The position numbers were made by a program, and so were the translations under genes. A DNA stretch of 64,000 nt from Opitutia bacterium (GTDB lineage Bacteria; Verrucomicrobiota; Kiritimatiellia; CAIQIC01; Lenti-01): contig SABN01000001.1 in NCBI GenBank assembly GCA_009928955.1, positions 11,994 to 75,993 of the forward strand. The letters are read 5' to 3'. The notes beneath the pieces are model-generated. The model did not search any database. It was not told the DNA's origin and saw only the letters and a program-made list of their open reading frames with translations. This document shows, piece after piece, positions 28,284-52,497 of this stretch; position 1 is the stretch's first letter, and the number at the start of each line of letters is the position of its first letter.

Positions 28284-28375
28284 CCCATCATTTGGCACTT
28301 TCGCGGATTCGTTGTCAACAAACACTAGATTAAAAAGGAATAAAAAGCGCTCTATCCGCCCAAGACGGGCTGTTT

Positions 28376-32197: not shown

Positions 32198-32617
32198 CTA
32201 TTCGATCGGCTCCGGCGGCTCGTCGTATCCCGCCGGTTCCGGCGGCTCGCCGTATCCCGCCGGTTCCGGCGGGGCCGGATATTCATATCCGGACGGCTCC
32301 GGATACGAAGAGGTTTCATACCCGCCATCCTCCGTCCCGGAGGCGGCCGCAACGCCGAAGCCCGAACCCGACAGACAGTACACCTTGGCGCTGCTTCCGG
32401 CGGGCCAGCAAAACGTGCCCGCGCTCGATCCCGTCCGGCAGTCGTTGGCCGCGCTCGCCCCATTGGGCTCGCAGATGGGAATCGATGCATTGTTCATCCC
32501 GGCCGGGCAATCCGCCGCGCCATCCCCGACGCTGCAGGTGTCGCCCAAGATCGGCGCCACCCGCCCCATGTCGATGCTGACGGGTTTTTCGTATTTGAGG
32601 CGCGGTTTTTCGGACAT
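32198..32617 (-). CDS. Cys-rich acidic 139-aa protein; candidate RiPP precursor (PqqA/lasso-like leader, six-Cys core, PEPxGY tail repeats)
   Basis: A strong RBS precedes the ATG. The leader is MSEKPRLKYEKPVSIDMGRVAPILGDT. Cys residues sit at 28, 37, 49, 60, 70 and 81. The tail is YPEPSGYEYPAPPEPAGYGEPPEPAGYDEPPEPIE. Confidence 0.6.
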   Translation of the reverse strand: MSEKPRLKYEKPVSIDMGRVAPILGDTCSVGDGAADCPAGMNNASIPICEPNGASAANDCRTGSSAGTFCWPAGSSAKVYCLSGSGFGVAAASGTEDGGYETSSYPEPSGYEYPAPPEPAGYGEPPEPAGYDEPPEPIE

Positions 32618-41700: not shown

Positions 41701-42144
41701 GACCGACGCCGTCAGCGGCGGCGTCGCCGGATTCGTCGCCGCCGCGGTGTTCACGAACTGGGTCGCGACCAACGGCACGTCCAGCGTCGTGCGGATTCGC
41801 ACCGTCACGCTCGAGCCCGCCGGCACCGCGTAGTTCGACAGCAGGCTCGCCGGCGTCGCCCCCGCCAAGTTCGACACCACGTTCACCGTCACGCCGGGTT
41901 GATAGACCGCCACCGGGACCAATGACACCACATGCCCCGAATTGGTGAAGGTGACGTAGTCGATGCTGATCCGGTCGCCGTTTCCGAACGACCCGCCCGC
42001 CCGCAGCCGCAAAGCCAGGTTGGCGCCCATGCGGGAAGTCAGGTTGGTGGTGACCTGGACATAGCTCGCGTCCGTTCCGGCCGTGGTCGGCACGGCGAAC
42101 ACCAGGTTCGACTGCCCGGCGAATCCGTTCGTGGAAACGTAAAA
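32716..42144 (-). CDS. giant adhesin-like surface protein, downstream segment of a frameshifted ~4218-codon gene
   Basis: There is no genuine start: the track 'M' is an internal GTG in ...NLVFAVPTT. Recognisable units are 5 SdrD-B-like repeats (GDRAW.D.DGDGIQ), DUF11-like units, and a C25 domain (HYTGHGG with the His codon at 36631-33, ALSCLLG with the Cys codon at 36529-31). It also has 3 MBG-like units (YDGTP...AGSYAV) and 4 discoidin-like domains. Confidence 0.85.
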   Translation of the reverse strand, partial: FYVSTNGFAGQSNLVFAVPTTAGTDASYVQVTTNLTSRMGANLALRLRAGGSFGNGDRISIDYVTFTNSGHVVSLVPVAVYQPGVTVNVVSNLAGATPASLLSNYAVPAGSSVTVRIRTTLDVPLVATQFVNTAAATNPATPPLTASVTNVSVANSVGDRAWFDVDGDGIQDGGEPGLTGVTVRIYAAGSNWVATTTSGVAGAYGFAHLPSGTYFLEFDAPEDHLPALQDQGGNDALDSDIAPATGRTAAFALSGGMSDMTRDAGFHQPPASIGDFVWREVDVDGLQGGGSETGMPGVAVQLYDAATNLVATTNTTAAGFYSFPNLPPATYFLEFTAPPGFMFTLQNQGGDDAADSDVSRTTGRTAPFFLPVGTHDTRWDAGLVEIVHGLHLTKTSAAGSCLSPGDAITYTLTVVNTGNVTQTGVAVEDLLPAGLTYVPNSAFAVVSNATVSTVRDEFNAVSYSGQDGTRNWAVDWQEDDPAGTAGPVGNYVGVTNGRMTLHYLYVGDEAAWRWADLSAETNATLSFDWQTVGLDANEYLAVRVATSPGGPFTQLEQFGGTASGTASYDLTAYISTGTTVRFEAAPGTENWESGEYAYLDNIEISSLRSGVATNPAFAPPGLVSGQDLTPGGRLVVTFQATVDAPSLVTQLVNTASVSSPLQPPLQASTTNCVVFADVGVRKFVAEATPDMLETIPYILVASNNGPDTATGVVITDVLPPQVQYVGHSNGAYSAGSGAWTIGTLAVNASTTLHVHVTVRENTADLNITNTATVTGRDLFDPVADNDSSSVVIVPKGWATVGDRAWLDADGDGIQGVGEAGLADVTVRLYGAGSNLLAETTTGADGSYHFTNLPAGSYFLEFAPPPDYFAAAQDQGGDDALDSDIAAGTGRTAVFSLSGGADDTSWDAGFYRLGAIGDWTWEDVNWNGQQESGDRGLPNVVVRLYNAASNVVGVETTTLDGAYAFTDLVPGAYLIGFTPPPGYLTTVADVGDDATDSDPAPDTGLTATVTLRSGQTNFTVDAGFFQVVSIGDRVWFDANRDGIQNPGETNGFADVPVALLNTNGIIVAETTTDADGYYLFSDKRAGTYVIRFDLSGISTNDVVTASKAGGDDAVDSDAISGTTGDYAWTGAFTVGGRPPASGEEEIHLAVDLGISTRDSTRAEVAEVWGEWTKDGGRVAWRTGSEFGTAGFFVHRVDPETGKETRMSDILVPSAFNEAGSVYGLVDPEAREGDEGTYRLEEIELSGEARGLGTHAVRFAVPPPAAKAVRTKKAAAAKALAPAPRTAPVPAEPSSRLKVLVKKEGIHGVALTSIAAGMGLALEDVRAQAAAGELKIAEQGLPVPVLFDAERGRLVFHARPPVRDWYSHEAAYLISAGKGLAMPRREPGASSGGTVFPVRLHFEEDRFLFSMTQMPEDFYFWAGVVSQTNDLLAPRFPLDLTGFAGGDLNLKVRLMGWSATTNHPDHLAEISFNGAVAGSIAFDGQETAEAELTIPGAAVVNGVNTVMVNGVMKPGQSHSFFVVDWIEASFDRDLTPSAPVAPFRAGQAPAFSAGAYSDPLALALDEAGNPTWIADAKGELSAKAWAVAAENERFAVIESSAVPMLVPEPAAADAWFLSETNRIDYLVIASRALAPAAQELADYRAGQGLRVGVAVFEDLCDLMTGGLRTPQAIPALLRHAAATWAQAPKMVVLAGGGHYDYLGATFDEVNPLPPLLVQTPDGVCASDGLLADTGGDDRPDVAIGRLPALTAADLAAMIAKIKVYEAGFGSAWQNQLVLVADQGNSAGNFSDSNTKLAEWATAPYSVASRIDLDQMAIGPARASLMDAFHAGAGFIHYTGHGGLFNLSGKGLLTAADVAKMDNATRPPITVALSCLLGRYELPATDSLGELLMRRPQGGAVALLAPSGLSFNAPAMELGEAFYRAVLQDGVGTLGLAFLRARRSLRSDLSSRDTFAVYNLLGDPALRIAGNEMTNGAPASAEIFLQDLEQGYDGQPRVATARTEPAGLAVRFTYDGSAAAPTEAGSYAVVGVVADDIFVGSATGTLVVAKAEAVILLGALEPVYDGTPKNATATTVPAGLAVEFRYDGGTAVPTEAGSYAVVATVVDGNHQASTTGTWVVAKAVATVALAGLEQTYDGTPRRVTAATVPAGLAVAITYGSGDAPPVLAGRYAVSAEIEDPNFAGGSAGALVVAKAAQTIEFPGIDDPLAPDGVGLSAISSSSLPVGFAVVDGPGRILDGPHLSFTGAGAVSVMAFQAGDGNWEPAPDVVRTFHVSPILLSATDVNVREGGEGRFYVRLAYAPAAATAVTVARSGGASVLSVKSGAGLLFSPANWNVWQAVTLAAAADGNGDNETAMFRVSASGVADQFVEATALDIDIGPNLALASNGSRITGTQATKPEWLIDGVHGASANYGYTIWTNRASPGTMTLDLQEAMRVSRIRLLNWDWGLRAHQYRIESSLDGTTWSPLVDASEGEHRGWEDWAVEDLSIRYLRFTGLSNSANQYVCLAEWEVYGPSSQFQLPRPELSSAAVNVREAGEGRFHVRLDRAPEANVAVAVSRASGDERLSVQSGAALVFTPANWAAWQVVTLAAGEDENGANETATFRISAPGVADRVMKATALDIDIGENRARASLGSTITGTQAYAPERAIDGVHASSVNYGYPVWTNPASPGTLTLDLKVATTVSRIRLLNWDWGYRSHRYRIESSLDGANWSALIDASTGEHRGWEDWAVAARTARYLRFTALSNSANRYVCIAEWEVYAAPVEPRQIECLATAVNVREGGEGRFHVRLDSAPAGSVSVGVSRSAGDANLFVKSGANLTFTPANWNAWQTVTLAASEDANGENETATFRIAVPGGADRLVEATALDDDIGVNWARASNGSTISGMQATKPEYLTDAVHMSSANYGYTFWTNEPPGTITLDLKAATSVSRIRLLNWDWSYRVHQYRIESSLDGASWSPLVEASAGEHRGWEDWALDGRSARYLRLTGLSNSANRFVCIAEWEVYGERTPEPKPRAVAKAASPAEFTDAGSFPMTVVTSDDGPEHTNGWAAVDGDPNTQWTGKSGAGGYIAIGYDVPMWVTNLVVDLAEGSSIPGQILYSPDAREWRTLPEDLARNPVEITYLWLLFPEDAFAASEPRVIEIRPQP
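33140..35330. repeat. three tandem ~735-741-nt coding modules (Ig/Calx-like + discoidin-like) inside the giant gene
   Basis: The protein segments VNVREGGEGRF...LLNWDW...YRIESSLDG..W...AEWEVY recur three times. The EWEVY-coding sites lie near 33141, 33872 and 34612. Confidence 0.8.
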
Positions 42145-45100
42145 AGGTGAAGGAATCCCCCGAATCCCAGTTCTGGCGGCGATAGGCGAAGCTCAGGGTG
42201 ACGCTGGTGTAGACCCGGCCCGCCGCCGCCGCCAAGGCATTGGTGCGCGTGACATGGTCGTTGTCCGCGCTGGTTTCCTCGAATACCAGCGCGTTGGTGC
42301 CGCCGGCCACGCGCACCAGCACGCTGCCGCTGGCGGCGGAGCCGTTGTCGCCCTGCTCGTTCCAGCCCCCGACCCAGTTGGCCGTGCCATCGTTGTTCGC
42401 ATAGGACACCGTCCCGAATCCATCCGAAACCGTTTCCACGAAGGAATTGGTTGTCGTCGCCAGCAACTGGACGATCTGTGCGCTGCCGGATACGAAGGAG
42501 ACCCCCGGCGGCAACGCGTCGGTCAGCGCCACCCCGGCCAAGGCCACCGTGCCGGTGTTCTGGAGCGTGAGGTAGTAATCGTTGGTCTCTCCCAGATTCC
42601 AATTGCCGGTCAGGCGGCTCGATTTGAACAGTTTCAGGCTCACGGTCGCCGGATTGTAGAAGCCCGCGTCCACCGTGTCGTCCACCTGGCCGCCCGACAG
42701 GATGATCGGAGCCGTGATGCCCGTGGCCGGATCGGCATCGCTGTCCGTCGCGTCCGCGCCCGCGTTCGCCGTCGTGAAGGAATAGCCCGCCGGCGGCGTG
42801 AACCCCACGAAATAGGTGCCGGCGGACAGGTTGGTGAAGGCATAGGCGCCCGCCACGGTGGAGGTCGTCGTCCCGACCCCGTTCAACGCCGCATCGTACA
42901 ACCGCACCACCACGCCCGCCAACCCCGGCTCCCCGCCGTCCTGCCGCCCGTTGAAATTCGCATCCACCCACGTGAAGTTGCCAATCGCCGCGGGCTGGAC
43001 AAACCCCGCGTCCACCGTCGTCTCCGCTTGGCCGCTGGTCAGCGCGATCGGCGCCGTGAAGCCCGTGCCGGCATCCGCATCGCTGTCCGTCGCGTCGTCG
43101 CCCGTGTTGGCCAAGGTGAACACATAACCCGCCGGGCGCGTGAACCCCACGAAGTAGGAACCCGGAAACAAGTTCGTGAACGCATACGCCCCCGCCACGG
43201 ACGACGTCGTCGTGGCGAGGAGATTGGAAGCCGCGTTGTACAGCCGCACCACCACGTTCGAGCGCCCCGGCTCTCCGCCGTCCTGCTGCCCGTTGCCGTT
43301 CGCGTCCCCCCACGTGCAATCGCCGAGCGAGGCCGGACGGACGAAGCCCGCGTCCACCGTGGCCTCCGCCTGACCGCTGACGAGGGTGACCAGCGCCGTG
43401 CGGTTCGTGCCCGGCAGCGGATCACTGTCCGTCGCGTCCGCGCCGGCGTTGGACGTCGTGAACAGGTAGCCCGCCGGCGGTGCAAACCCGACGAAATAGG
43501 AACCCGGCGCTAGATTCGCGAACGCATAGGCCCCGGCCACCGACGAAGTCGTCGCCGCGAGCAGGTTGGAGTTCGCTTTGTACAGTCGCACGCCCACGTT
43601 CGGCAGCGCCGGTTCCCCGCCGTCCTGCTGCCCGTTGCCGTTCGCGTCCTCCCACGTGAAATCGCCGAGGGCGGCTGGCCGGTAGAAACCCGCATCCACC
43701 GTCCCGTTGGTTTGCCCGCTGACCAGCGGGATCAGCGCCGTGCGGTTCGTGCCCGGCAGCGGATCGCTGTCCGTCGCGTCGGCCCCGACGTTTGCGGTCG
43801 TGAACAAGTAGCCCGCCGGCGGCGTGAAATCCACGAAGTAGCTGGCGCCCGGCAGCAGATTCGTGAACGCATAGGCGCCGGCCGCCGACGACGTCGTCGT
43901 CCCGATCACGTTCGACGCCGCATTGTACAGCCGCACCTCAACGTTGGAGAGCGCCGGTTCGCCGGGGTCCTGCTGTCCGTTGCCGTTGGTGTCTTCCCAC
44001 GTCCAATCGCCGAGCGTCGCCCGCCGGTACAGGCCCGCATCCAGCGTGAGATTGGTCTGGCCGGTGCCCATCGCAAACAACGCCGTCAGGCCCGTGGCGA
44101 GGTCGGCGTCGCTGTCGATCGCCGGGTCGGTTCCAGCGTAGCGCGCCGTGAATTCATAGCCATCCGGCAAGAAATACTTCGCGAAATACGTCCCCGGCCC
44201 GTGGCCCGGGGATTTCCAAGATCCGTTGGTGTCCGTGCGGACCACCGCCGCCAGATTGGCGCTGCCGTCGCACACATGCACCAGCACGTTGGAAAGACCC
44301 GGTTCGCCGGCCTCCTGCACCCCGTTCGCATTCAGATCCTCCCACGCCCGGTCGCCCAAGGTCACGTTCAAAGCCTCGTCGTAGAACATCAAGCCGCCGC
44401 TGATCAGGTCGAGGCCGCCAAAGGTCGATTCCGGCGACGTGTTCGTCGGAAAATAGACGGCGTTGTTGACCAACGTCCAATAGGCCCCGTTCGTCGTCGT
44501 GTCGTTCGCCGCCAACGCATAGCCGTAGAAGAGATCGTTGGTCCGCAGTCCCAGCGTCTGCCAGTTCAGGAACACGCCGGACAGCGGCTGCGGGCTCACG
44601 TCGGCCGACGGATGCTGGGAATCGCCGCTTCCCGTGTAGCCGCGCATCACGATCGTGTCGAGCGAGATGCCGGAGGCGCCCCAGTGCGTTTCCAGCACGC
44701 TGATCGGCGTTCCGAACGCCGAGGGCTTCTGGTTGCCGTCCAGCGCCGTGATCGCGGCGATCTTGAACCGGTCGTTGCCGCCGCGGTCCATCACCAGGAA
44801 TCCGCGCTGTTCGATGTGGCTGTGCACCGGCAGCCCATCCGGAAACAGGTAGTCGATGCGCTGGATGTTGTTGTTGTTCCCGTTGCCGTCGCCTTGGTCG
44901 GAGAACACGTTGTCCGCGCCATGGTTGATCAGCGGACTGCGCAGGGATTCTTCCATCGTGGCCGCGTAGCGCGACTTCAGGAAGATGTTCGTCCCTGAAT
45001 ACGACGACTGCTCGTAGAGCACGATGTGATGCTCCCCTTTGATCGTCGCGTTGGTCGTCCGGGCGATGTTGATCCGCCCCGCCAAGGCGATGCCGTCAAA

Positions 45101-45373
45101 CACGCGTCCGCCGACCGTGACATCCCCCAGGAACATCTGGTTCGAAACGCCCTCGTTGAACCGGATGTTGTAGACCGTTCCCGTGGGGAACCCCGCGCTG
45201 CCGCCGCCCGTGGCGGAATAGTTGTCGTTCGTGTCCGTGTAGGTCTGGTACGTCACCGTCGCGCTCGAAATCCCCTGCACCTGCGCCTGCGCGAAGGCCC
45301 CGCCCCATGCCAGCCAGACAAGCAGAAGCGCCCCGCATCCATGCACCCGACTTTTCTGGATTGTCGCTCTCAT
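42143..45373 (-). CDS. giant adhesin-like surface protein, upstream segment (signal peptide, ~330-aa unknown domain, 5 SdrD-B-like repeats, DUF11-like, start of lectin-like domain)
   Basis: It starts with a signal peptide (MRATIQKSRVHGCGALLLVWLAWGGAFAQA). The reading frame makes sense down to ...NWDSGDSFTF at the A5 run (42141-42145). The remaining track ORF (41480-42140) is Arg-rich out-of-frame overlap. Confidence 0.85.
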
Positions 45374-45416
45374 TGACCGGCGGAAGAACCCCGAGAAGAA
45401 CTTTCCGCCTGTTCAA

Positions 45417-45445
45417 ATAATATGGATAAAGCGCTATAATGGCAA
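45417..45445 (-). promoter_or_regulatory. candidate sigma70-type promoter of the giant adhesin gene (TTGCCA-17 nt-TATTAT)
   Basis: On the minus strand the -35 is at 45445-45440 and the -10 at 45422-45417, about 45 nt upstream of ATG 45373. It lies inside the AT-rich island. A 7-bp hairpin (ggcggaa...ttccgcc) sits in the predicted 5' UTR. Confidence 0.35.
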
Positions 45446-45708
45446 AGTTTATACGATTAAATTATGGTTAAAGAATAGTTTCGAAATTGTTAGATCTTTA
45501 TCCACATCTTTCACTCGCGCAGCGAGGTGCGCGCCCACCGGCTTTAATGATGTCCTAATGTTTCTTCAGACCTTAACGCTGGAAACCATCGATATCTGTT
45601 TTTAGGCTTTTTATCCCATTTTCACTTCTTTTTGCGGTTTTTTTCCATTTTTCACTGTTTTTTACAAATTTATCGATTTTTTGATTGATGATGCAAACGG
45701 AAAATTTG

Positions 45709-45749
45709 ATGAAAAAATGCGGAACCAATTGAAAATCAAGTGGTTCCGC
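45709..45749 (-). terminator. rho-independent terminator ending the long minus-strand operon
   Basis: A 9-bp perfect stem (gcggaacca / tggttccgc) with a 13-nt loop is followed on the minus strand by ATTTTTTC. It lies 56 nt after the HprK-like stop. Confidence 0.65.
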
Positions 45750-45804
45750 AATTCATTCTCCAAGCCGCTTTCATTGGGGCGGCGGAAGCTCTCAACCATG
45801 GAAA

Positions 45805-46413
45805 TCAGGCCGGTCCTGCGTTCCCCTCCAAAAACGAGGAGAGACGGTTCTCCAACTCCAACTCAACCCCGCCGGATTCCTTCGAAAACCATAGACTCCC
45901 GCCCGGGCAGACGCGCGCGATTTCCGCGACCCATCGGAACCACTGCCGCCGCATCTGCCGAACGGAGGACATGTTGCCCGCCGCCGTCCCCCGCCCCTCT
46001 TGCGGCCGGCCGAACTTGCGCTGCAAGTCGATTTCCATCGCCGCATCCATCAGGCACCGGGCGAGTTCCAAGGGGGCGAGCGGCTCCACCCTCGCGGCGG
46101 CCGCCTTGTGGATCCGAAAACACCCCCGCAACGGCACCGCCCCCCCCCCCTCGGCGCGACGACGGACTTCCTCCAGCCAGCCAAGCCATTCGTCCCTTTC
46201 AAACCGGAAACTCCCATCCACCCCCCGCCAATTTCCATCCGGGCCCCGTGCGACATACACCGAATCATCGGCCAAGACCGGATGGGTCTTTCCCAGCATC
46301 CGCGCGATCGTGCTCTTCCCCGCCGTCGAATGGCCCAGAAACAGAAGCGCGCCTCCGTCGACGACCACCGCGGAGGCGTGCAGAAACAATCCTCCTGCCG
46401 CAGCGGCGATCAT
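45805..46413 (-). CDS. HPr-kinase-C-terminal-like P-loop protein (HprK-related kinase)
   Basis: The in-frame ATG is at 46413, with an ATGA overlap with the rSAM stop. It reads LHASAVVVDGGALLFLGHSTAGKST, which resembles the HprK catalytic core. It is ~202 aa. Confidence 0.7.
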   Translation of the reverse strand: MIAAAAGGLFLHASAVVVDGGALLFLGHSTAGKSTIARMLGKTHPVLADDSVYVARGPDGNWRGVDGSFRFERDEWLGWLEEVRRRAEGGGAVPLRGCFRIHKAAAARVEPLAPLELARCLMDAAMEIDLQRKFGRPQEGRGTAAGNMSSVRQMRRQWFRWVAEIARVCPGGSLWFSKESGGVELELENRLSSFLEGNAGPA

Positions 46414-47585
46414 GGGGCGATTTCTCCTCGCCCCCACGAAATTCGCCTCGTCGGCGGAAAAACGCCCCGTCGCTCCGCTTCCGCGCAGAGCGGCGACACG
46501 TTCACCAGCTTGCCCGTGGCCTCGTAGTTCTGGGCCAGGCAATGCGTCATGCACCGGCCCGCATGGAGGCAGTCCCCGCAAACTCCCGGAAAGGGGCCCG
46601 CCAGATCCGCCCGCATCTGGCGCAAGACCGGATGCGTCATCCAGACTTCCCGCAGGCTGTCCTTTCCCAGCTTCCCGAAACACAGCTCCGGGAGGTTGCG
46701 CCCGATGCCGCACAGCGCCATCTCGCCGGTTCCCAGAATGCCCAGGATGTGCCGCACATGGCATCCGGCTCCCTCGCCGCCATAGCGCAGCAGTTCCTTG
46801 ACCGTCGCCAGCGCCGGCGGCACCATCCCGCCGAGATGGATCGGATAGCGGTCCTGCAAGGGCCCGCGGATGCGGTGCGTCAACGCCAGCAACTCGTCGA
46901 AGGAAAGCCCCTGCCCTTGCTGGTGGATCTCCGCGCCGCGGCCCGAGGGCGTGACCGGATTGAACTTCACCGAGCTGGCGTCCAGGCGCAGGGCCAGCTC
47001 GATCAGGGCTTCGATCCCGCCCACGTTCTCCCGGCAGACGGACATGATGATCTGCGGCCGGATTCCGGCGGCAACCAGATGGCCGATGCCGCGCACGGCG
47101 CCGGCGTAGGCGCCGCGCACGCCCCGGAACCGGTCGTGCCAGCCCTCGTCCGCGCTGTCGAGGCTCACCGCGATGCGCGCGAGGCTCGTCTTCTCCTTCA
47201 GATGGATGGCCAAGTCCCGGTCGATCAGCGTGGCATTGGTCTCCATGGACAGATCGAGGCCTTCCGCCGTGAGAAAATCGGCGATCCGCCGAAACTCCGG
47301 ATGCAGCACCGGCTCCCCGCCCGTGAGCTTGGCGGCCGTCAACCCCATCGGCTTGGCCTCCGCCACCGCGCCCCGCAGCAGCTTGAAATCGAGGCATTCC
47401 CCCGGCACGGGCTTGCCATGGACGAAGGTGGGCGTGATCCAGCAATGCCGGCAGTGCAAATTGCACCCCGCGGACAGGTACAAGTAGAACATGCGCAAGG
47501 CCGGCACGTCCGGCGGCATCTCCACCCCGGGGGAAGACGGGGAACTTTCGGCCAGCCCGTCGCAGGTGTCGAGGACATCCGTCAC
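46410..47585 (-). CDS. radical SAM/SPASM domain protein (no RRE of its own)
   Basis: It has the CNLHCRHC cluster motif and a C-terminal Cys-rich SPASM-like region (CHVRH...CGIG...CGDCLHAGRCMTHC). The start is GTG, overlapping the upstream stop (GTGA). Confidence 0.88.
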   Translation of the reverse strand: MTDVLDTCDGLAESSPSSPGVEMPPDVPALRMFYLYLSAGCNLHCRHCWITPTFVHGKPVPGECLDFKLLRGAVAEAKPMGLTAAKLTGGEPVLHPEFRRIADFLTAEGLDLSMETNATLIDRDLAIHLKEKTSLARIAVSLDSADEGWHDRFRGVRGAYAGAVRGIGHLVAAGIRPQIIMSVCRENVGGIEALIELALRLDASSVKFNPVTPSGRGAEIHQQGQGLSFDELLALTHRIRGPLQDRYPIHLGGMVPPALATVKELLRYGGEGAGCHVRHILGILGTGEMALCGIGRNLPELCFGKLGKDSLREVWMTHPVLRQMRADLAGPFPGVCGDCLHAGRCMTHCLAQNYEATGKLVNVSPLCAEAERRGVFPPTRRISWGRGEIAP

Positions 47586-48205
47586 GCGGAGGTCTCCACC
47601 ACGCCGATGAACCCCTTTTTCAAGAGGGATCCGATGAATTCATCCACGTCCTTCTCCACTTGGGCGCGAGCCGTTCCCTCGCAGACTTCGCACAGGTGCG
47701 CCACCACCTCGGCCTGCGTGCGGGGCGCCGCCAAAAACGTCCAGATGGCCACCGCGACGGGATTGATGACCTCGATCGAATCCGTGTCCGGATTGAACAA
47801 GATCCCCCCGTCGTCGTCCTCCTGGCGGAAGGAGACATCGGGATTCACCAGGAATTTCGCTGCATTCATCGGCTCCGGCCTTTCCATTTTCAAATCCACC
47901 ACCCGCCGGACGATGCCGTGGCGCTCCATTTCCCGCAGCGCCTCGGCGATCGGCGCCAGCATCTCGCGCGCCGGAACCCCGCATCCGGCGGCGACCGCCC
48001 AGGCAATATCCTGCACCGTCCGCTCCCCGTCAAGGAGCTCCAGCAATTGTTTCGACCGTCCGTTGACTTCGCGCAAGTGAAGGGAGTCGCAGAGCAACAC
48101 CAGCGACCGGTCCCCGAAGTCTTCGATCGCGGTGTCGTCCCGAAGCCTGAAGCGCAGGTGACAGGGGTCAGGAGACCGGGGACAGGAAGAATCAGTCATG
48201 GCCAC
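47582..48205 (-). CDS. tandem PqqD-family (two RRE-like domains) protein
   Basis: Two PqqD-like halves are present. The first runs DFGDRSLVLLCDSLHLREVNGRSKQLLELLDGERTVQDI. The second runs FRQEDDDGGILFNPDTDSIEVINPVAVAIWTFL...EVVAHL. The first ~14 codons lie in the cassette inverted repeat, so the start is uncertain (GTG 48205 or ATG 48199). Confidence 0.75.
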   Translation of the reverse strand: MAMTDSSCPRSPDPCHLRFRLRDDTAIEDFGDRSLVLLCDSLHLREVNGRSKQLLELLDGERTVQDIAWAVAAGCGVPAREMLAPIAEALREMERHGIVRRVVDLKMERPEPMNAAKFLVNPDVSFRQEDDDGGILFNPDTDSIEVINPVAVAIWTFLAAPRTQAEVVAHLCEVCEGTARAQVEKDVDEFIGSLLKKGFIGVVETSA

Positions 48206-48665
48206 ACAGGAAAGGAGTTGGCGCCTTAATCATGGAGCCTATCATTTTTCCAACTTCACGGTTGAGCGCTATCAAAACGCGATGCTCATCGGGAGTCAAG
48301 CAGCCACAGTCCCGCGTGAAATCGAGCGCGGTATCCGTTTCGTTGTTTTCGCCGTCGCAATCGGTCAGCTTGGACACAAAATGCGCCTCATATCTACCCT
48401 TAGCCCAAGCCTCGCGGAGGTTCAGACAAACTGAGCGGGAAGATCGGCGAATCTGGCTGGTCAGCGCGAATCTCGCTTCTGCAGGAAACCGTTTGGAGCA
48501 TTCGAATACCCGCATCGCCAAATCATATGCCTTCTGGTAAACGGTAAGATCTTTAATGGTCTGCACAGCCATGGCGGTCGCCTGTCTCCGATTTCCTGTC
48601 CCGCCCCCCCTGTTCCCCGTCCCCGGTCGCCTGTTTCCTGACTGCCTCCTGTCCCCGGTCTCCTG
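48169..48665 (-). mobile_element. 497-bp cassette: four-helix-bundle gene bracketed by a 19-bp inverted repeat (IVS-like insertion)
   Basis: Segment 48169-48187 (caggagaccggggacagga) is the exact reverse complement of 48647-48665. There are extra direct copies of ccccggtc[g/t]cctgtttcctg at 48618-48640 and 48650-48672. Confidence 0.45.
48192..48572 (-). CDS. four-helix-bundle protein (23S rRNA intervening-sequence protein / Avd-like family)
   Basis: It reads DLTVYQKAYDLAMRVF...QIRRSSRSVCLNLREAWAKGRY.AHF.SKL, the family signature. GC is visibly lower than in the neighbours. Confidence 0.88.
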   Translation of the reverse strand: MAVQTIKDLTVYQKAYDLAMRVFECSKRFPAEARFALTSQIRRSSRSVCLNLREAWAKGRYEAHFVSKLTDCDGENNETDTALDFTRDCGCLTPDEHRVLIALNREVGKMIGSMIKAPTPFLCGHD

Positions 48666-50070
48666 TTTCCTGGAGGAACCGCCGATAACAGCAATCCGGA
48701 TTGGCCACGTACAAATCGCCGGTGCGGGTGTATTCGACGGCCGGGCACCCCCCGCTGCAGTACGGAATCCATTCGCAGCCCGCGCAACCCGGCACCCGGT
48801 CCATCGGGATGCGCCCGCGCCCGCGCATTTCCTTCAGCAGCGGATGATCCTGCCAGATGGCGCGGACGGGCGTCTCGCCGATCCTTCCCAGCGAGGCGGC
48901 CGCCAGCATGTTGCAGGGAACGATCATGCCGTCGTGGTGGACCGCCAGCTTGGCGAACATGCATCCGCAGGAGGAAAGGCATCCCATCTTCCAGCGGCGG
49001 CAGGGTTGCCCGGTGGCCTTGGCCTCCTCCATCTCCCGGAACATGTGCCACAGGGCCAACGATCCGGCCGTGGCCTGGATGCGCCCCGGATAGGTCTTCT
49101 CCAGCCGCGCCAGCGTCTTCATCGCGACCGGCCGCTGTTCCGGAGTCAGCCCGATGCGGTCCTGATTCGAGCATCCCGTCCCCATGGCCATCGCATCGTT
49201 GGTGCCGATCCGCGCCAGCCCGATTTCGTCGAGCAGCAGCCGGACCGTGTTGTCCAGATCGTCCACGTTGTGCCGGTTGACCGTCACGCGGGCCGTCGCC
49301 GGAAAACCCGCCGCCTTCAGCAGCCGCAACCCGCGGATCGCCTTCTCGAAACTGCCTTTTCCCCGGGAAGCGTCGTGGACCGCCGCGCAGGAACCATCGA
49401 TCGAGATCTGGATCGAGTCCATCCGCCGGTGGCGCCCCCGCTCCCTGAACCGGTCCAGCGTCTCCTCCGTGATCCGCGTGCCGTTCGACAGGATGCCGTA
49501 GCGCATGCGGGCCGCCACGAGGCCGTCGATCAGTCGCCACACGTCGTCCCGCATGAAGAGTTCGCCGCCGCTGAGCGTCAGGCTCCGCACGGCCAGGGTT
49601 TTCAACTCGGCGAAAAAGGCCAGCCATGTCTCGGCGGGGAGATCCCGCCGCCCCGCCATCTCATCGGCGTAGTAGCAATAGGCGCACCCCAGATTGCACC
49701 GGCCGGTCAGGGAAAGGTCCAAGCTCCGCGGCGCCTCGTGGAGCCATGAATGTTCTTCCGGCGGAAGCGGCTTCGGACTTGGGGCGCCGGCGGCGGCGGC
49801 ATAGCCGCCGCGCTTCAGCTCGTCCGCGAACGAGGCGGCATCCGCCCGGATTTCATCCGTCACGGGAATTTCAAACCGGCGGGCCAGCGCGGCGGCCAGG
49901 TCCTCCGTCCGCGCCCTTCCGTCCATGGCGTCCCAGAGCATCCGCCCCGAGGCGTTGATCACCTTCTCCCGGCCCGTGTCCGGATCGAAGAGAATGGCGT
50001 TGTCCCCCTCCCGGCAGACGGAAATCTGCGGCTTCCGGAACCAAAAAGCCGTGGGTTCCGGAGGACTCAT
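48553..50070 (-). CDS. radical SAM/SPASM peptide maturase with N-terminal PqqD/RRE-like domain
   Basis: The N-terminus is ISVCREGDNAILFDPDTGREKVINASGRMLWD (PqqD-like). It has the CNLGCAYC motif and a SPASM region ending ...CCYRRF. The last ~37 codons (ETGDRG...) are encoded by cassette repeats. ATGA overlaps the upstream sugar dehydratase stop. Confidence 0.88.
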   Translation of the reverse strand: MSPPEPTAFWFRKPQISVCREGDNAILFDPDTGREKVINASGRMLWDAMDGRARTEDLAAALARRFEIPVTDEIRADAASFADELKRGGYAAAAGAPSPKPLPPEEHSWLHEAPRSLDLSLTGRCNLGCAYCYYADEMAGRRDLPAETWLAFFAELKTLAVRSLTLSGGELFMRDDVWRLIDGLVAARMRYGILSNGTRITEETLDRFRERGRHRRMDSIQISIDGSCAAVHDASRGKGSFEKAIRGLRLLKAAGFPATARVTVNRHNVDDLDNTVRLLLDEIGLARIGTNDAMAMGTGCSNQDRIGLTPEQRPVAMKTLARLEKTYPGRIQATAGSLALWHMFREMEEAKATGQPCRRWKMGCLSSCGCMFAKLAVHHDGMIVPCNMLAAASLGRIGETPVRAIWQDHPLLKEMRGRGRIPMDRVPGCAGCEWIPYCSGGCPAVEYTRTGDLYVANPDCCYRRFLQETGDRGQEAVRKQATGDGEQGGRDRKSETGDRHGCADH

Positions 50071-51965
50071 GCCGGCGGGGCGGACGGGGCCGGCGTGTAT
50101 TCCGGCGCGATTTCCTTCAGGGAAGCCTTGATCCGCGCCGCGTCGAACGTGCTGGCCTCCGCCACCAGCCGGTCCACTTGGCCGCGGATGCGCCGGTCGA
50201 ATTCGGCGGCTTCCGCATCGCGGGTGCGCTTGAGCACCATGATCTTCTCGTGCGCCGTTTCCACGATGCCTTCGCCATGGGTGATGAGCTCCTCGTAGAG
50301 CTTCTCGCCCGGCCGCAGGCCGGAATACACGACCTGGATGTCCTGGTCGGGAACCTTGCCGGACAGCCGGATCATGTCCCGGGCCATGTCCGCGATCCGC
50401 ACCGGCGTGCCCATTTCCAAGATGAAGATTTCACCGCCCTCGCCCATTGCGCCCGCCTGCAGGATCAGCTGGCAGGCTTCGGGGATCATCATGAAATAGC
50501 GCGTCATCTCCGGATGCGTCACCGTCACCGGTCCGCCATCCTGGATCTGCTGCTGGAACAGGGGGATCACCGACCCGGAGGATCCCAGCACGTTCCCGAA
50601 ACGCACGGCCATGAACCGGGTTTTGCCGGGCGCGCGCGCCTGCAGGAGGATTTCCGCCACCCGCTTGCTGGCGCCCATCACGCTGGTCGGCCGGACGGCC
50701 TTGTCCGTCGACACCTGCACGAAGCGCTCGACCCCGAAGGCCTCCGCCACCTCCATCATCACCCGGCTGCCGGTCACGTTGTTGAGCACGGCCTCCCACG
50801 GATTCAATTCGACCATCGGCACATGCTTGCAGGCCGCGGCATGGAACAGCACGTGCGGACGAAACCGGTCGAAGATGTTCTCCATCAATGCCCGGTCCTG
50901 GACCCGGCCCAGGACGGGATGCAAGGCTTCGAACCGGTTCTCGGTCCGCAGCTCCATTTCAATCTGATACAGGTTGAATTCGTTGGCCTCGATCAAGACG
51001 AGGGCCCCCGGATTGAATCGCAAAATCTGCCGGCACAGCTCCGAACCGATGGAGCCGCCCGCGCCCGTCACCGCCACCGTCTTGCCGGTCAGGCAGCGCC
51101 CAATCCCCGCATAGTCCAGTTGCACCGGAGACCGGCCCAGGATGTCTTCGTACTTCACTTCCCGGACATCGCTGACCGTGACCTTGCCATCGACCAGGGA
51201 GCCCAGCGACGGCAGCGTCTTGAACGGCAGCCCCGACGCCTTGCAGGCGCTGACGACCTGCCGCATGTCGTTGCCCACCACCGAGGGCATGGCGATCAGG
51301 ATTTCATCGGCCTGGAAGCGGCTCACGAAAAACAGCAACCGGCTGATCGGCGCGCGCACCGGCACTTCCAGCAGCGTCTGCCCATGCTTGCGGACATCGT
51401 CGTCCACGCACGCCACCACGTCGTAGCGCGAACGCGGATTCCCCTGGATTTCCCGGATGATGCTGGCCGCCGCATCCCCCGCCCCGAGGATCAGCAGGCG
51501 GACTTGCCGGACCGGCAGGCTGTCGTCGTCGTCGCGGTTCCAGAACTTCAGCAAGGACCCCTGCTTCGTGCACAGCATCCGGATGCCGATCCGGAATCCC
51601 CCGCAGAAAAACAGCGTGAAGATGCAGTCCGCCAGAAAGACGGACCGCGGATATCCCTTGAACTGCTGGAGGATGGTCAAGCCGGTCATCAGGGTCAACG
51701 TGGCCAGCGCCGAGGCCTTGGCCAACCGCAGGGCGTCGGGAATGCTTGTATACCGCCACATGCCGCGGTAAACCCCTGCCGCGAGGAAAACCAGCGCCTT
51801 CACCGGCAAGAGCCACGGAAGGAGGAAGAGGATTCGCCGCCACTCCACCGCCGGAATGTCCAAGGAAAAGCGGATGGAGTAGGCCAAGATCAGCGAGGCG
51901 GCGAAAAACGCCAGATCCGCGCCCAGAATCACGTAGAAATTTCGGTTTTTGAATTGCTGAAGCAT
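50067..51965 (-). CDS. membrane-bound UDP-sugar 4,6-dehydratase (CapD/PglF/WbpM family polysaccharide biosynthesis protein)
   Basis: The start is at MLQQFKNRNFYVIL (ATG 51965). It has 4 N-terminal TM segments, two Rossmann motifs (LILGAGDAA, VTGAGGSIG) and the STDKAV motif. Confidence 0.88.
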   Translation of the reverse strand: MLQQFKNRNFYVILGADLAFFAASLILAYSIRFSLDIPAVEWRRILFLLPWLLPVKALVFLAAGVYRGMWRYTSIPDALRLAKASALATLTLMTGLTILQQFKGYPRSVFLADCIFTLFFCGGFRIGIRMLCTKQGSLLKFWNRDDDDSLPVRQVRLLILGAGDAAASIIREIQGNPRSRYDVVACVDDDVRKHGQTLLEVPVRAPISRLLFFVSRFQADEILIAMPSVVGNDMRQVVSACKASGLPFKTLPSLGSLVDGKVTVSDVREVKYEDILGRSPVQLDYAGIGRCLTGKTVAVTGAGGSIGSELCRQILRFNPGALVLIEANEFNLYQIEMELRTENRFEALHPVLGRVQDRALMENIFDRFRPHVLFHAAACKHVPMVELNPWEAVLNNVTGSRVMMEVAEAFGVERFVQVSTDKAVRPTSVMGASKRVAEILLQARAPGKTRFMAVRFGNVLGSSGSVIPLFQQQIQDGGPVTVTHPEMTRYFMMIPEACQLILQAGAMGEGGEIFILEMGTPVRIADMARDMIRLSGKVPDQDIQVVYSGLRPGEKLYEELITHGEGIVETAHEKIMVLKRTRDAEAAEFDRRIRGQVDRLVAEASTFDAARIKASLKEIAPEYTPAPSAPPA

Positions 51966-52059
51966 AGGGAAAACCACTTTTACCCGAACTCCGGAGTCGC
52001 CGCTTCCGAACAACCGAGGATTATACGTCCCCCTCTCCCCCGAAAACAACAGGGAAATA

Positions 52060-52497
52060 TCAGCGGGGGGGGATTTCCCGGTTTTGGAGAAACCGCCCCA
52101 TCCCCCACCAGAACCCGACGGCCCCGACCCCGTTGGCGACCGCATCGGCCCAGCTGAACGTCCGGACCCCGCCGCGGAGGGTCAACTGGAGGATTTCCAT
52201 CAGCAGCCCATAGCCGATGGCCGCCGCCGGCAGAAGCCAGCGGGGCGATCTGGCCTCTTCCAGCTCGGCCGCCCAGCGGAACAAGGCCCCCAGAACCCCG
52301 TACATCGCCACATGCGCCCACTTGTCCGCCCCGGGAATCTGGGCCAGGGACGGGGGGAACCGCCATGCCGGAAGGAGGGAAAGCACGGCGATCAGCGCCA
52401 TATGGATGGCGCACGCCCAGCGGCGAAATCCGGTCGGCACCGCCAGCAATCGGATTCGCCACCGTTGCAGAAAGGATCTGGGCTGCTGCTGCGCCAC
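52060..52497 (-). CDS. VanZ-like family membrane protein
   Basis: It is a small 4-TM protein with DKWAH and SWADAVAN motifs, typical of VanZ-like proteins. Confidence 0.65.
   Translation of the reverse strand: MAQQQPRSFLQRWRIRLLAVPTGFRRWACAIHMALIAVLSLLPAWRFPPSLAQIPGADKWAHVAMYGVLGALFRWAAELEEARSPRWLLPAAAIGYGLLMEILQLTLRGGVRTFSWADAVANGVGAVGFWWGMGRFLQNREIPPR

What the first reader, a model, noticed from the sequence alone, without database searches (positions are those of the whole stretch)
45805..50070. Maturase module: two rSAM/SPASM enzymes, three RRE domains and an HprK-like kinase in one coupled gene string
Seen in the sequence:
- 48553-50070 encodes a PqqD-like N-domain, CNLGCAYC and a SPASM region.
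- 47582-48205 encodes two tandem PqqD-like domains with no catalytic domain.
- 46410-47585 encodes a second rSAM (CNLHCRHC) with SPASM but no RRE.
- 45805-46413 encodes a ~200-aa HPr-kinase-like P-loop protein (GHSTAGKST).
- The genes are linked by GTGA (47582-85) and ATGA (46410-13) overlaps. A clean terminator follows at 45709-45749.

Established knowledge: an RRE with rSAM/SPASM is the hallmark of sacti/ranthipeptide-type maturases. HprK-like kinases phosphorylate precursor peptides in some lasso clusters. TIGRFAMs, as I recall, lists 'HprK-related kinase' and PqqD neighbourhoods of unknown product.

Inference: pairing a free-standing double RRE with an RRE-less rSAM, plus a kinase, suggests a multi-step pathway on one peptide. 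I cannot map it to a described system.
Basis: partly seen in the sequence, partly recalled or inferred. Interest (0 to 1): 0.8.

Follow-up and report, generated by a model that had tools for sequence, protein, structure and literature searches.

The report
Split radical-SAM peptide-maturation gene cluster
The flagged genes are real. They form the enzyme half of a peptide-modifying pathway related to the named but never tested 'SynChlorMet' cassette, and its cysteine-rich 139-residue substrate and export genes lie 13 kb away behind a giant surface-protein gene.

Summary
Minus-strand genes at 50070-45805 encode:
- a PqqD-fused radical SAM/SPASM enzyme;
- a free double-PqqD protein;
- a second radical SAM/SPASM enzyme without a PqqD domain;
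- a 202-aa HprK-like P-loop protein.

The start/stop overlaps and the terminator are as described.

The module does map to a described system. Each protein's best NCBIfam hit is its counterpart in the SynChlorMet (SCM) cassette (ScmE, ScmD, ScmF, ScmC), but every score is below the family cutoff. No experimental paper on that cassette turned up.

The module is only half of the unit. In relatives from several phyla, ScmC is followed directly by a Cys-repeat precursor peptide, a Sec11/SipW-type serine peptidase and an ABC exporter. An NTP_transf_5 protein also lies in the neighbourhood, at varying positions. In the window these sit at 32617-28376, separated from the enzymes by a ~4,200-residue (two-ORF) adhesin gene.

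Most likely function: leader-guided radical cross-linking of six cysteines, phosphorylation with possible glycosylation, leader removal and export.

Verdict: a new variant of a known, predicted-only kind. It is a good genome-mining lead, not a new category.

The parts
50067..52145 (-). CapD/PglF-type nucleotide-sugar dehydratase gene. It is the last gene of an upstream glycan operon and its stop overlaps the ScmE-like start (ATGA).
   Evidence: Polysacc_synt_2 E 1e-116. Overlap read. The gene is adjacent to the cassette in Kiritimatiellia, CSSED10-310 and L019/L020.
48553..50070 (-). ScmE-like enzyme: N-terminal PqqD/RRE domain, radical SAM core (CNLGCAYC) and full SPASM domain.
   Evidence: TIGR04250 E 2.7e-114, 381.8 bits (cutoff 400); the next family scores 132.6. 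Pfam PqqD, Radical_SAM and SPASM all pass their gathering scores.
48192..48572 (-). Inserted four-helix-bundle gene (23S rRNA IVP / bAvd-like). It is not part of the pathway.
   Evidence: PF05635 E 6e-28. GC 0.52 and GC3 0.57 against 0.63-0.68 and 0.77-0.86 for its neighbours. Present in 8 of about 18 Kiritimatiellia-type loci at the same site.
47582..48205 (-). ScmD-like protein consisting of two tandem PqqD/RRE domains, with no catalytic domain.
   Evidence: Each half passes the Pfam PqqD gathering score (24.3 and 46.5 bits). The C-terminal half gives TIGR04248 at 53.5 bits. In Chloroflexota the two halves are separate hits 30-90 nt apart.
46410..47585 (-). ScmF-like radical SAM/SPASM enzyme (CNLHCRHC) without an RRE.
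   Evidence: TIGR04251 E 6e-102, 341.6 bits (cutoff 400); the next family scores 128.3. The seven-Cys SPASM motif is read in the translation.
45805..46413 (-). ScmC-like short HprK/P-fold P-loop kinase (catalytic domain only).
   Evidence: TIGR04249 39.2 bits, matching profile positions 122-243 of 292. AlphaFold2 pLDDT 87.8; the Foldseek top 10 are all HprK/P. G27-H-S-x-x-G-K-S-T35 and D49-D50 are invariant in 41 homologues.
45709..45749 (-). Intrinsic-terminator-like hairpin plus U-run that closes the enzyme operon.
   Evidence: -23.3 kcal/mol, z = -6.6, 0 of 200 shuffles fold as well. Sequence read.
32716..45373 (-). Intervening giant surface-protein gene (two overlapping ORFs of 1297 and 3128 aa). 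It separates the enzymes from the precursor.
   Evidence: SdrD_B x10, DUF11, Peptidase_C25, MBG and F5/8-type-C domains. The same position is occupied in about 20 Kiritimatiellia-type MAGs. The gene is absent in L008, L013, L016, L018 and L041.
32198..32617 (-). Precursor peptide (139 aa): leader MSEKPRLKYEKPVSIDMGRVAPILGD, a six-Cys repeat core and an acidic Ser/Pro-rich tail.
   Evidence: AAGGAG ribosome-binding site 8 nt upstream. Homologues lie directly next to the cassette in 15 or more loci. The leader-motif DNA scan gave 25 real hits, 22 of them in genomes that also hold the ScmF-like gene. 51 short relatives were found among 1.84 billion representative proteins.
31389..32009 (-). Soluble S24/S26-type serine peptidase of the Sec11/SipW kind; candidate leader peptidase.
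   Evidence: Peptidase_S24 24.0 bits against 23.3. TIGR02228 43.8 bits. Ser27, His65-Arg66, Asp80 and Asp86 are invariant in 31 homologues, while Lys69 is not. The protein aligns to the SEC11C catalytic motifs.
30166..31392 (-). NTP_transf_5 'uncharacterised nucleotidyltransferase'. It was hidden inside a mis-called 989-aa ORF.
   Evidence: PF14907 E 1.6e-45. The reading frame was set by the GC3 profile. ATGA overlaps at both ends. The gene recurs near the cassette in six or more lineages.
28376..30169 (-). ABC exporter (597 aa, fused permease and ATPase).
   Evidence: ABC_tran E 8e-33. MsbA- and bacteriocin-exporter-type NCBIfam hits. It is syntenic with the precursor in relatives.
26955..28325 (-). 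Putative outer-membrane beta-barrel protein, conserved downstream of the exporter in Kiritimatiellia-type loci.
   Evidence: BBP2_2 25.6 bits against 23.7. 67-72% identical and syntenic in L056, L068 and L079-L083.
26410..26943 (-). Conserved 177-aa protein of unknown family; last gene of the export half.
   Evidence: No Pfam or NCBIfam hit. Syntenic at 53-64% identity in L056, L068, L080, L081 and L083.

Best explanation
This is a ribosomal-peptide (RiPP-type) maturation and export system. It is a divergent sister clade of the SynChlorMet cassette, and in this Kiritimatiellia-like genome a giant adhesin gene splits it into two transcription blocks.

Shown here:
- Two intact radical SAM/SPASM enzymes, of the ScmE and ScmF types.
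- Three PqqD/RRE domains.
- An HprK/P-fold kinase with conserved Walker A and DD motifs.
- A 139-aa peptide with a PqqA-like leader (KYEKPxSIDMGRVAPxLG) and a six-Cys core. The core repeats C-x2-G-[NS]-x-A-x3 every 9-12 residues.
- A Ser-His-Asp peptidase of the Sec11/SipW kind, an NTP_transf_5 protein and an ABC exporter.
- These parts lie together, although their order varies, in relatives from Desulfobacterales, Victivallales-like genomes, CSSED10-310, Chloroflexota and others.

Inferred:
1. RRE domains bind the leader. The free double RRE brings the RRE-less ScmF-type enzyme to the substrate, or bridges the two enzymes as RRE-RRE contacts do in thuricin CD TrnC/TrnD.
2. The two radical SAM enzymes install cross-links at the six cysteines, most likely thioethers of the sacti- or ranthipeptide kind.
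3. The kinase phosphorylates Ser or Thr.
4. The NTP_transf_5 protein may add sugar onto the phosphate, as PsmK and PsmN do on the lasso peptide pseudomycoidin. The co-transcribed PglF/PglE/PglC-like sugar genes could supply the donor.
5. The peptidase removes the leader.
6. The ABC exporter and the beta-barrel protein export the product.
For: - Family assignment and margins. A genuine SCM cassette used as comparison (L034) scores ScmE 557 and ScmF 511 bits.
- Domain calls.
- Kinase fold and motifs.
- Synteny of enzymes, precursor, peptidase and exporter in 30 or more genomes.
- Co-occurrence tested from the peptide side.
- Precursor family: all hits are 66-140 aa. Cys spacing is 9-12 in 159 of 170 intervals, and Gly sits at +3 in 157 of 208 cysteines.
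- Peptidase catalytic residues.
- NTP_transf_5.
- PsmK/PsmN precedent: PMC6993621.
- TrnC/TrnD RRE-mediated complex: PMC12093266.
- Sugar genes next to the cassette in three lineages.
Against: - There is no chemical evidence for any step.
- Every NCBIfam score is below the curated cutoff, and the window peptide does not hit the ScmA model TIGR04252.
- In the window the precursor is 13 kb from the enzymes, behind a terminator.
- The nearest characterised radical SAM families score only 60-130 bits, so the cross-link type is a guess.
- The precursors have no conserved C-terminal Ser, unlike known HprK-like RiPP kinase substrates.
- An S26-type peptidase without a membrane anchor is not an established RiPP leader peptidase.
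- The sugar-gene linkage is absent in Chloroflexota and unclear in Desulfobacterales.
- I assumed from memory that PsmN belongs to PF14907; this was not checked.
Confidence: 0.75

Rival explanations
1. The enzyme module acts on a substrate other than the 139-aa peptide, for example the adjacent giant surface protein or a glycan-pathway protein. On this view its position in the glycan operon reflects its real function.
For: - In the window the enzymes overlap the CapD-like gene and end at a terminator.
- The next gene is the giant adhesin.
- The precursor lies 13 kb away.
Against: - In L008, L013, L016, L018, L041, L017, L019/L020 and the Chloroflexota loci the peptide lies directly beside the cassette with no giant gene.
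- The leader-motif scan returns almost only genomes that hold the cassette.
- The PqqA-like leader fits binding by PqqD domains.
Confidence: 0.08
2. It is a peptide-derived redox-cofactor pathway, like PQQ or mycofactocin, rather than a secreted modified peptide.
For: - The leader resembles PqqA.
- PqqE (101 and 65.9 bits) and the mycofactocin maturase (101 and 88.5 bits) are among the lower NCBIfam hits.
- PqqE is among the few PDB sequence hits.
Against: - The core is a variable number (3-9) of Cys repeats, and the tail is hypervariable. Cofactor precursors have a fixed reactive motif.
- A dedicated ABC exporter and a beta-barrel protein are conserved with the system.
- No dehydrogenase partner was seen.
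Confidence: 0.05
3. The two radical SAM enzymes belong to non-peptide clades (heme/NirJ/AhbD-type tetrapyrrole enzymes, anSME or sugar-modifying enzymes such as BlsE), and the PqqD domains are incidental.
For: - AhbD, NirJ and BlsE families appear among the secondary hits at 120-130 bits and below.
- BlsE is a PDB sequence hit.
- The genomic context is a sugar operon.
Against: - The ScmE and ScmF models score 340-380 bits, against at most 133 for any other family.
- Three PqqD domains pass threshold.
- A conserved precursor peptide is present.
Confidence: 0.04
4. The cluster is a decaying remnant: split by the adhesin gene, invaded by a foreign gene, and no longer functional.
For: - The low-GC IVP insert extends the ScmE C-terminus.
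- The giant gene lies between the enzymes and the precursor, and that gene itself carries a frameshift.
Against: - All catalytic motifs are intact.
- The same split layout is kept at 55-83% amino-acid identity in about 20 species-level genomes.
- Coding-type GC3 is seen throughout.
Confidence: 0.05

Closest known systems
SynChlorMet (SCM) cassette, NCBIfam/TIGRFAMs TIGR04248-TIGR04252 (ScmD, ScmC, ScmE, ScmF, ScmA)
   Same: - Two paralogous radical SAM/SPASM enzymes, each matching its own Scm type.
- A PqqD protein and an HprK-like ScmC.
- A Cys-repeat precursor with a KP-containing leader and a C-x-T-G-G-x-A-type core; compare the L034 peptide.
- SCM-like relatives also carry the S26-type peptidase (L031, L032, L035). 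The second, SCM-like cassette in L019 carries both the peptidase and an ABC exporter.
   Different: - All scores are below the equivalog cutoffs, and the window precursor is not recognised by TIGR04252.
- ScmE carries a fused RRE, ScmD is doubled, and ScmC lacks the N-terminal ~120 residues of the 292-position model.
- The precursor is 139 aa with a long acidic tail.
- The cluster is embedded in a glycan operon and split by a giant gene.
- The SCM cassette is a prediction only: no paper on it was found in the held library.
Sactipeptide and ranthipeptide maturases (AlbA, SkfB, CteB, PapB, TrnC/TrnD)
   Same: - RRE plus radical SAM plus SPASM architecture acting on a Cys-rich core.
- Two cooperating radical SAM enzymes with RRE-mediated contacts have a precedent in thuricin CD (PMC12093266).
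- SkfB is the best PDB sequence hit for the ScmE-like enzyme.
   Different: - Only distant sequence similarity: PapB 76.5 bits against a cutoff of 340, SkfB 61, AlbA 59.
- No thioether has been demonstrated.
- The precursor is much longer.
- A kinase, an NTP_transf_5 protein and an S26-type peptidase are not typical of those clusters.
Lasso-peptide tailoring pair PsmK (HprK-like kinase) and PsmN (NTP-transferase-like) of pseudomycoidin; PadeK of paeninodin
   Same: An HprK-like kinase and an 'uncharacterised nucleotidyltransferase' are encoded together in a RiPP cluster that also has PqqD-type recognition domains. In pseudomycoidin they phosphorylate the precursor and then add hexose onto the phosphate. 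The DD motif needed by PsmK is conserved here as D49-D50.
   Different: - There is no lasso cyclase or B2 protease.
- The kinase is shorter, about 200 aa.
- The precursors do not end in Ser.
- The family identity of PsmN with PF14907 was not verified here.
PQQ pathway (PqqA, PqqD, PqqE)
   Same: A PqqD-type chaperone works with a radical SAM/SPASM enzyme. The leader KYEKPVSIDMG resembles the PqqA N-terminus (from my own knowledge of PqqA).
   Different: - The core is a Cys repeat, not the Glu/Tyr pair.
- There are no PqqB, PqqC or PqqF genes.
- Export genes are present.
ER/archaeal-type signal peptidase I (Sec11, Bacillus SipW)
   Same: The Ser-His-Asp motifs GxSM, HR and GD are invariant. TIGR02228 is the best NCBIfam hit.
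   Different: - The score is below cutoff (43.8 against 51.85).
- No N-terminal hydrophobic anchor is seen in the sequence.
- The substrate leader is hydrophilic, not a signal peptide.

Membership tests
SynChlorMet cassette (NCBIfam equivalogs) | ScmE model TIGR04250 at or above 400 bits | tested here: not met
   381.8 bits, with a full-length match over residues 113-470. The genuine member in L034 scores 557.
SynChlorMet cassette (NCBIfam equivalogs) | ScmF model TIGR04251 at or above 400 bits | tested here: not met
   341.6 bits, with a full-length match. The L034 member scores 511.
SynChlorMet cassette (NCBIfam equivalogs) | ScmD model TIGR04248 at or above 100 bits | tested here: not met
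   53.5 bits, from the C-terminal PqqD domain only.
SynChlorMet cassette (NCBIfam equivalogs) | ScmC model TIGR04249 at or above 125 bits | tested here: not met
   39.2 bits, covering profile positions 122-243 of 292.
SynChlorMet cassette (NCBIfam equivalogs) | ScmA precursor model TIGR04252 at or above 35 bits | tested here: not met
   The window peptide gives no hit. A Syntrophobacterales relative reaches only 17.5 bits.
SynChlorMet cassette (NCBIfam equivalogs) | Gene content: two distinct radical SAM/SPASM paralogues, PqqD, ScmC and a Cys-repeat precursor; each protein's best family is its Scm counterpart | tested here: met
   Best-hit margins are 381.8 against 132.6 and 341.6 against 128.3. 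The precursor core repeat is shared with the L034 peptide.
RRE-dependent radical SAM/SPASM RiPP maturase | CxxxCxxC radical SAM motif and the seven-Cys SPASM motif in both enzymes | tested here: met
   CNLGCAYC and CNLHCRHC are present. CX10-11GX4C, CX2CX5CX3C and a trailing C are read in both translations. Pfam Radical_SAM passes for both enzymes.
RRE-dependent radical SAM/SPASM RiPP maturase | PqqD-type RRE domain above the Pfam gathering score | tested here: met
   Three domains score 45.6, 24.3 and 46.5 bits against 23.4.
RRE-dependent radical SAM/SPASM RiPP maturase | Cognate precursor with leader and core encoded with the enzymes | tested here: met
   The precursor is adjacent in 15 or more related loci and 13 kb away in the window.
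RRE-dependent radical SAM/SPASM RiPP maturase | Leader binding and modification of the peptide | not testable with these tools
   This needs binding assays and mass spectrometry.
HprK/P-like kinase | Pfam Hpr_kinase_C at or above 33.3 bits | tested here: not met
   20.0 bits, E 5e-4, over residues 11-56 only.
HprK/P-like kinase | HprK/P (PEPCK-type) fold with Walker A GxSGxGKS/T and a following DD metal site | tested here: met
   The Foldseek top 10 are all HprK/P (E 5e-5, probability 1.0, TM-score 0.4-0.5), followed by PEPCK. G27-T35 and D49-D50 are invariant.
Sactipeptide / ranthipeptide | Cys sulfur-to-carbon thioether cross-links | not testable with these tools
   Only the Cys-repeat core is seen.
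Sactipeptide / ranthipeptide | Maturase belongs to a characterised sacti- or ranthi-synthase family | tested here: not met
   PapB 76.5 against 340, StsB 103 against 625, SkfB 61 against 300, AlbA 59 against 850.
S26B (Sec11/SipW) signal peptidase | TIGR02228 at or above 51.85 bits | tested here: not met
   43.8 bits.
S26B (Sec11/SipW) signal peptidase | Conserved catalytic Ser, His and Asp | tested here: met
   S27, H65 and D80/D86 are invariant in 31 homologues. K69 is variable.

The most novel reading that the evidence does not exclude
The product is not a small antibiotic. It is a roughly 110-residue peptide with multiple thioether bridges that is also phospho-glycosylated on its hypervariable Ser/Thr/Pro-rich acidic tail, and it serves as an envelope or matrix component.

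- The HprK-like kinase and the NTP_transf_5 protein would carry out the tail modification.
- The sugar would come from the co-transcribed PglF/PglE/PglC-like genes.
- A soluble Sec11/SipW-type peptidase would remove the leader.
- The peptide would be made together with a giant adhesin.

This would link radical-SAM RiPP chemistry to cell-surface glycan biology.
Probability: 0.2. Interest if true: 0.8.

Novelty: new variant of a known kind. Interest (0 to 1): 0.55.

Why it matters
The SynChlorMet cassette is defined by curated family models, but I found no experimental study of it in the library searched. This window and its relatives add four things:
- a much larger and more diverse sister clade, seen so far only in metagenome-assembled genomes from about five lineages;
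- a clear precursor family with a simple repeat rule;
- the full accessory set of peptidase, NTP_transf_5 protein and exporter;
- a recurring link to nucleotide-sugar genes.

Together these make the chemistry directly testable by co-expression and mass spectrometry. Possible outcomes are a new cross-link pattern, a radical-SAM RiPP that is also phosphorylated or glycosylated, and a new type of leader peptidase.

Tried and rejected
- The alignment-based locus search with the peptides failed because no block was conserved enough.
I replaced it with a degenerate leader-motif DNA scan.
- BLASTP between the two halves of the double-PqqD protein found nothing. Scanning each half separately against Pfam settled the question.
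- A PDB sequence search with the kinase gave only chance P-loop hits. Fold comparison was needed.
- The 989-aa 'ABC' ORF was rejected. The GC3 profile shows its first ~390 codons are in the wrong frame and hide the NTP_transf_5 gene.
- The spacer after the precursor gene has no significant RNA structure (z = 0.16).
- Literature searches for SynChlorMet, TIGR0425x, HPr kinase with SPASM, PF14907, and Kiritimatiellia with ranthipeptide found nothing relevant.
- The PMC id I recalled for Haft & Basu 2011 (J Bacteriol), which I remember as the paper describing the cassette, is not held. What I say about that paper rests on memory and on the NCBIfam names.
- PF27840, which is precomputed on the kinase homologues, is not in the local Pfam copy, so its name is unknown.

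Full report
**1. Observation.**
The minus strand between 50070 and 45805 carries a tight gene string with coding-type composition (GC3 0.77-0.86).
- The 505-aa product has PqqD (residues 26-89), Radical_SAM and SPASM domains, all above Pfam thresholds, and the CNLGCAYC motif.
- The 207-aa product is two PqqD domains. Scanned separately, the halves score 24.3 and 46.5 bits against a gathering score of 23.4. BLASTP between the halves found nothing.
- The 391-aa product has Radical_SAM, CNLHCRHC and a complete seven-Cys SPASM motif, but no PqqD domain.
- The 202-aa product has GHSTAGKST followed by LADD. Pfam Hpr_kinase_C is below threshold (20.0 against 33.3), and a PDB sequence search gave nothing. 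An AlphaFold2 model built on 41 homologues (pLDDT 87.8, pTM 0.86) has HprK/P chains as its ten best PDB matches, then PEPCK. The Walker A residues and D49-D50 are invariant.
- The GTGA and ATGA overlaps are real, and a further ATGA joins the upstream CapD-like gene to the first enzyme.
- The hairpin at 45749-45709 with its U-run folds at -23.3 kcal/mol (z = -6.6).
Its GC is 0.52 against 0.63-0.68 for its neighbours. It is present at the same site in only 8 of about 18 closely related loci, where it also lengthens the ScmE C-terminus. It is a foreign insert, not a pathway gene.

**2. Family.**
Against NCBIfam each protein's best hit is its SynChlorMet-cassette counterpart:

| Protein | Model | Score (bits) | Cutoff | Next family |
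|---|---|---|---|---|
| ScmE-like | TIGR04250 | 381.8 | 400 | 132.6 |
| ScmF-like | TIGR04251 | 341.6 | 400 | 128.3 |
| ScmD-like | TIGR04248 | 53.5 | 100 | 34.7 |
| ScmC-like | TIGR04249 | 39.2 | 125 | 18.7 |

A Syntrophobacteraceae locus found here (L034) is a genuine SCM cassette, with ScmE at 557 and ScmF at 511 bits. The window therefore holds a sister clade of that family, not a member by the curators' thresholds. The anSME, heme/NirJ, PqqE and mycofactocin families are only distant hits. SkfB, PqqE and BlsE are the nearest solved structures by sequence.

**3. The module is half of a larger unit.**
- A genome scan with the ScmF-like protein gave 55 loci. About 30 of them are 55-83% identical. 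They come from MAGs labelled Kiritimatiellia or Verrucomicrobiota, Victivallales, Desulfobacterales or 'delta', CSSED10-310, unclassified bacteria and Chloroflexota.
- Mapping the window proteins onto them shows the order ScmE - double PqqD - ScmF - ScmC throughout the Kiritimatiellia-type loci. Desulfobacterales and Chloroflexota have rearranged versions. There the two PqqD domains can give separate hits, and in Chloroflexota ScmE lacks the fused RRE.
- The 139-aa ORF at 32617-32198 has homologues directly beside the cassette. They lie after ScmC in L008, L013, L016, L017, L019, L020 and the Chloroflexota loci, and between ScmF and ScmD in L018 and L041.
- A degenerate DNA scan for the leader motif across 185,579 species genomes gave 28 hits. 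Of these, 25 are real, and 22 come from genomes that also hold the ScmF-like gene. The three others (Lactobacillus, Polyangiales, Acidimicrobiales) have no cassette genes and look like chance matches.
- In about 20 Kiritimatiellia-type MAGs the layout is the same as in the window: enzymes, giant surface-protein gene, then precursor, peptidase, NTP_transf_5, ABC exporter, beta-barrel protein and a 177-aa protein.

**4. The downstream half.**
- The precursor gene has an AAGGAG ribosome-binding site.
- The 206-aa protein after it hits Peptidase_S24 (24.0 against 23.3) and archaeal-type signal peptidase I (43.8 bits). It aligns to the catalytic motifs of SEC11C. In 31 homologues Ser27, His65-Arg66, Asp80 and Asp86 are invariant while Lys69 varies. 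This points to a Ser-His(-Asp) enzyme of the Sec11/SipW kind. No N-terminal hydrophobic anchor is visible.
- The listed 989-aa 'ABC' ORF is a mis-call. A GC3 frame profile reveals a 408-aa gene at 31392-30166 in another frame, an NTP_transf_5 protein (PF14907, E 1.6e-45). ATGA overlaps join it to the peptidase gene and to the true 597-aa ABC exporter at 30169-28376.
- NTP_transf_5 homologues recur next to the cassette in at least six lineages. In L017 and L019 they sit between the CapD-like gene and ScmE.

**5. The precursor family.**
- The first ~26 residues (MSEKPRLKYEKPVSIDMGRVAPILGD) are the most conserved part. Y9, K11, P12 and G25 are invariant in the alignment. From my own knowledge, this stretch resembles the PqqA N-terminus.
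- The core holds six cysteines in the window and 3-9 in relatives. Cys-to-Cys spacing is 9-12 residues in 159 of 170 intervals. Gly sits at +3 in 157 of 208 cysteines, and Ala is common at +6. The L034 SCM peptide shows the same C-x-T-G-G-x-A rhythm.
- In Kiritimatiellia-type peptides the first ~88 residues are conserved. A 14-76-residue tail is hypervariable, rich in Ser, Pro, Gly, Glu, Thr and Asp, and almost free of Lys and Arg.
- Searching 1.84 billion representative proteins with residues 1-89 gave 51 hits. All are 66-140 aa long, nearly all align from their N-terminus, and the 13 read in full share the leader and repeat pattern.
- The NCBIfam ScmA model does not detect the window peptide.

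**6. Mechanism.**
Shown:
- the domain architectures;
- intact catalytic motifs in both radical SAM enzymes, the kinase and the peptidase;
- conserved co-location with a leader-plus-core peptide and an exporter.

Inferred:
1. The PqqD/RRE domains bind the leader.
2. The RRE-less ScmF-type enzyme reaches the substrate through the free double RRE, or through RRE-RRE contacts. TrnC and TrnD of thuricin CD form such a complex and act jointly (PMC12093266).
3. The two enzymes cross-link the cysteines, most plausibly as thioethers.
4. The kinase phosphorylates Ser or Thr.
5. The NTP_transf_5 protein may extend the phosphate with sugar. In pseudomycoidin the HprK-like PsmK phosphorylates the precursor, and the 'uncharacterised NTP transferase' PsmN adds hexose to the phosphate. 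PsmK needs its DD motif (PMC6993621).
6. The S26-type peptidase removes the leader.
7. The ABC exporter and the beta-barrel protein export the product.

The upstream genes are a formyltransferase-like protein, a GT4 glycosyltransferase, a polysaccharide deacetylase, a Bac_transf phosphoglycosyl transferase, a DegT aminotransferase, a VanZ-like protein and a CapD dehydratase. Sugar genes from this set precede the cassette in Kiritimatiellia, CSSED10-310 and L019/L020: transferase, aminotransferase and dehydratase in the first two, aminotransferase and dehydratase in L019, and only the dehydratase within the shorter L020 locus. This fits a sugar-donor role, but the link is absent in Chloroflexota.

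**7. Rivals.**
- A different substrate is unlikely, given the adjacency in other phyla.
- A cofactor pathway is unlikely, given the variable repeat number and the exporter.
- Non-peptide radical SAM clades are excluded by the score margins.
- Decay is unlikely, given intact motifs and conserved synteny.

**8. Novelty.**
The kind of system is known, but only as a prediction. It is an RRE-dependent radical SAM/SPASM peptide pathway of the SCM type. No paper on SynChlorMet, or on an HPr-kinase-plus-SPASM cluster, was found in the held library. NCBI annotates the close kinase homologues as 'hypothetical protein'.

The variant differs from the SCM cassette in several ways:
- a fused RRE on ScmE;
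- a doubled ScmD;
- a truncated ScmC;
- a long-tailed precursor;
- embedding in a glycan operon;
- the split by a giant adhesin gene.

I rate it a new variant of a known kind with moderate interest. It is a well-defined and testable genome-mining lead rather than a new category.

Noticed in passing
window 48192-48572 (-): A four-helix-bundle (23S rRNA IVP / bAvd-like) gene with GC 0.52 is inserted between ScmE and the double-PqqD gene. It is present in only 8 of about 18 closely related loci, always at this site, and it adds about 35 residues to the ScmE C-terminus.
   Followed up: partly
L022 8201-9989; L024 6066-7611; L026 8904-9816: In Chloroflexota relatives the gap between ScmE and ScmF is filled with small low-GC3 genes. 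By eye they look like toxin-antitoxin pairs (HicB/HicA-, RelE/YoeB- and PIN-like). This is a second case of selfish-looking inserts inside this cassette.
   Followed up: no
window 32716-45373 (-): The giant surface-protein gene is read as two ORFs (1297 and 3128 aa) that overlap at 41480-42102. This could be a frameshift or an assembly error. The protein has 10 SdrD_B repeats, DUF11, a gingipain-type Peptidase_C25 domain (E 4e-65), 3 MBG domains and 3 F5/8-type-C domains.
   Followed up: partly
window 28376-31345 (-): The mechanical 989-aa ORF is misleading. Its first ~390 codons are out of frame relative to the real coding sequence and mask a 408-aa NTP_transf_5 gene at 31392-30166.
   Followed up: yes
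L017, L019, L020 (e.g. L019 6654-18725): These genomes hold two paralogous cassettes side by side. One is of the window type and one is closer to canonical SCM. In L019, which was read in full, each cassette has its own precursor, ScmC-like gene and PqqD genes, and a single NTP_transf_5 gene lies between them.
   Followed up: partly
window 32198-32350 (-) and relatives L056-L087: The C-terminal tail of the precursor is hypervariable in length (14-76 aa) and sequence. It is rich in Ser, Pro, Gly, Glu, Thr and Asp with almost no Lys or Arg. In the window it contains PEPxGY-like repeats.
   Followed up: partly
window 45374-45804: A 430-bp AT-rich spacer lies between the ScmC terminator and the giant gene. 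It has sigma-70-like promoter matches on both strands (for example 45445-45417 on the minus strand), so the giant gene probably has its own promoter.
   Followed up: no
homologues of window 45805-46413: Nearly all kinase homologues carry a precomputed Pfam hit, PF27840.1. This family is absent from the local Pfam copy, so a recent Pfam family may already cover this protein. Its name could not be looked up.
   Followed up: no
window 24796-26337 (-): A class II aminoacyl-tRNA synthetase gene (Asp/Lys/Asn type) follows the 177-aa gene and marks the end of the conserved block.
   Followed up: no
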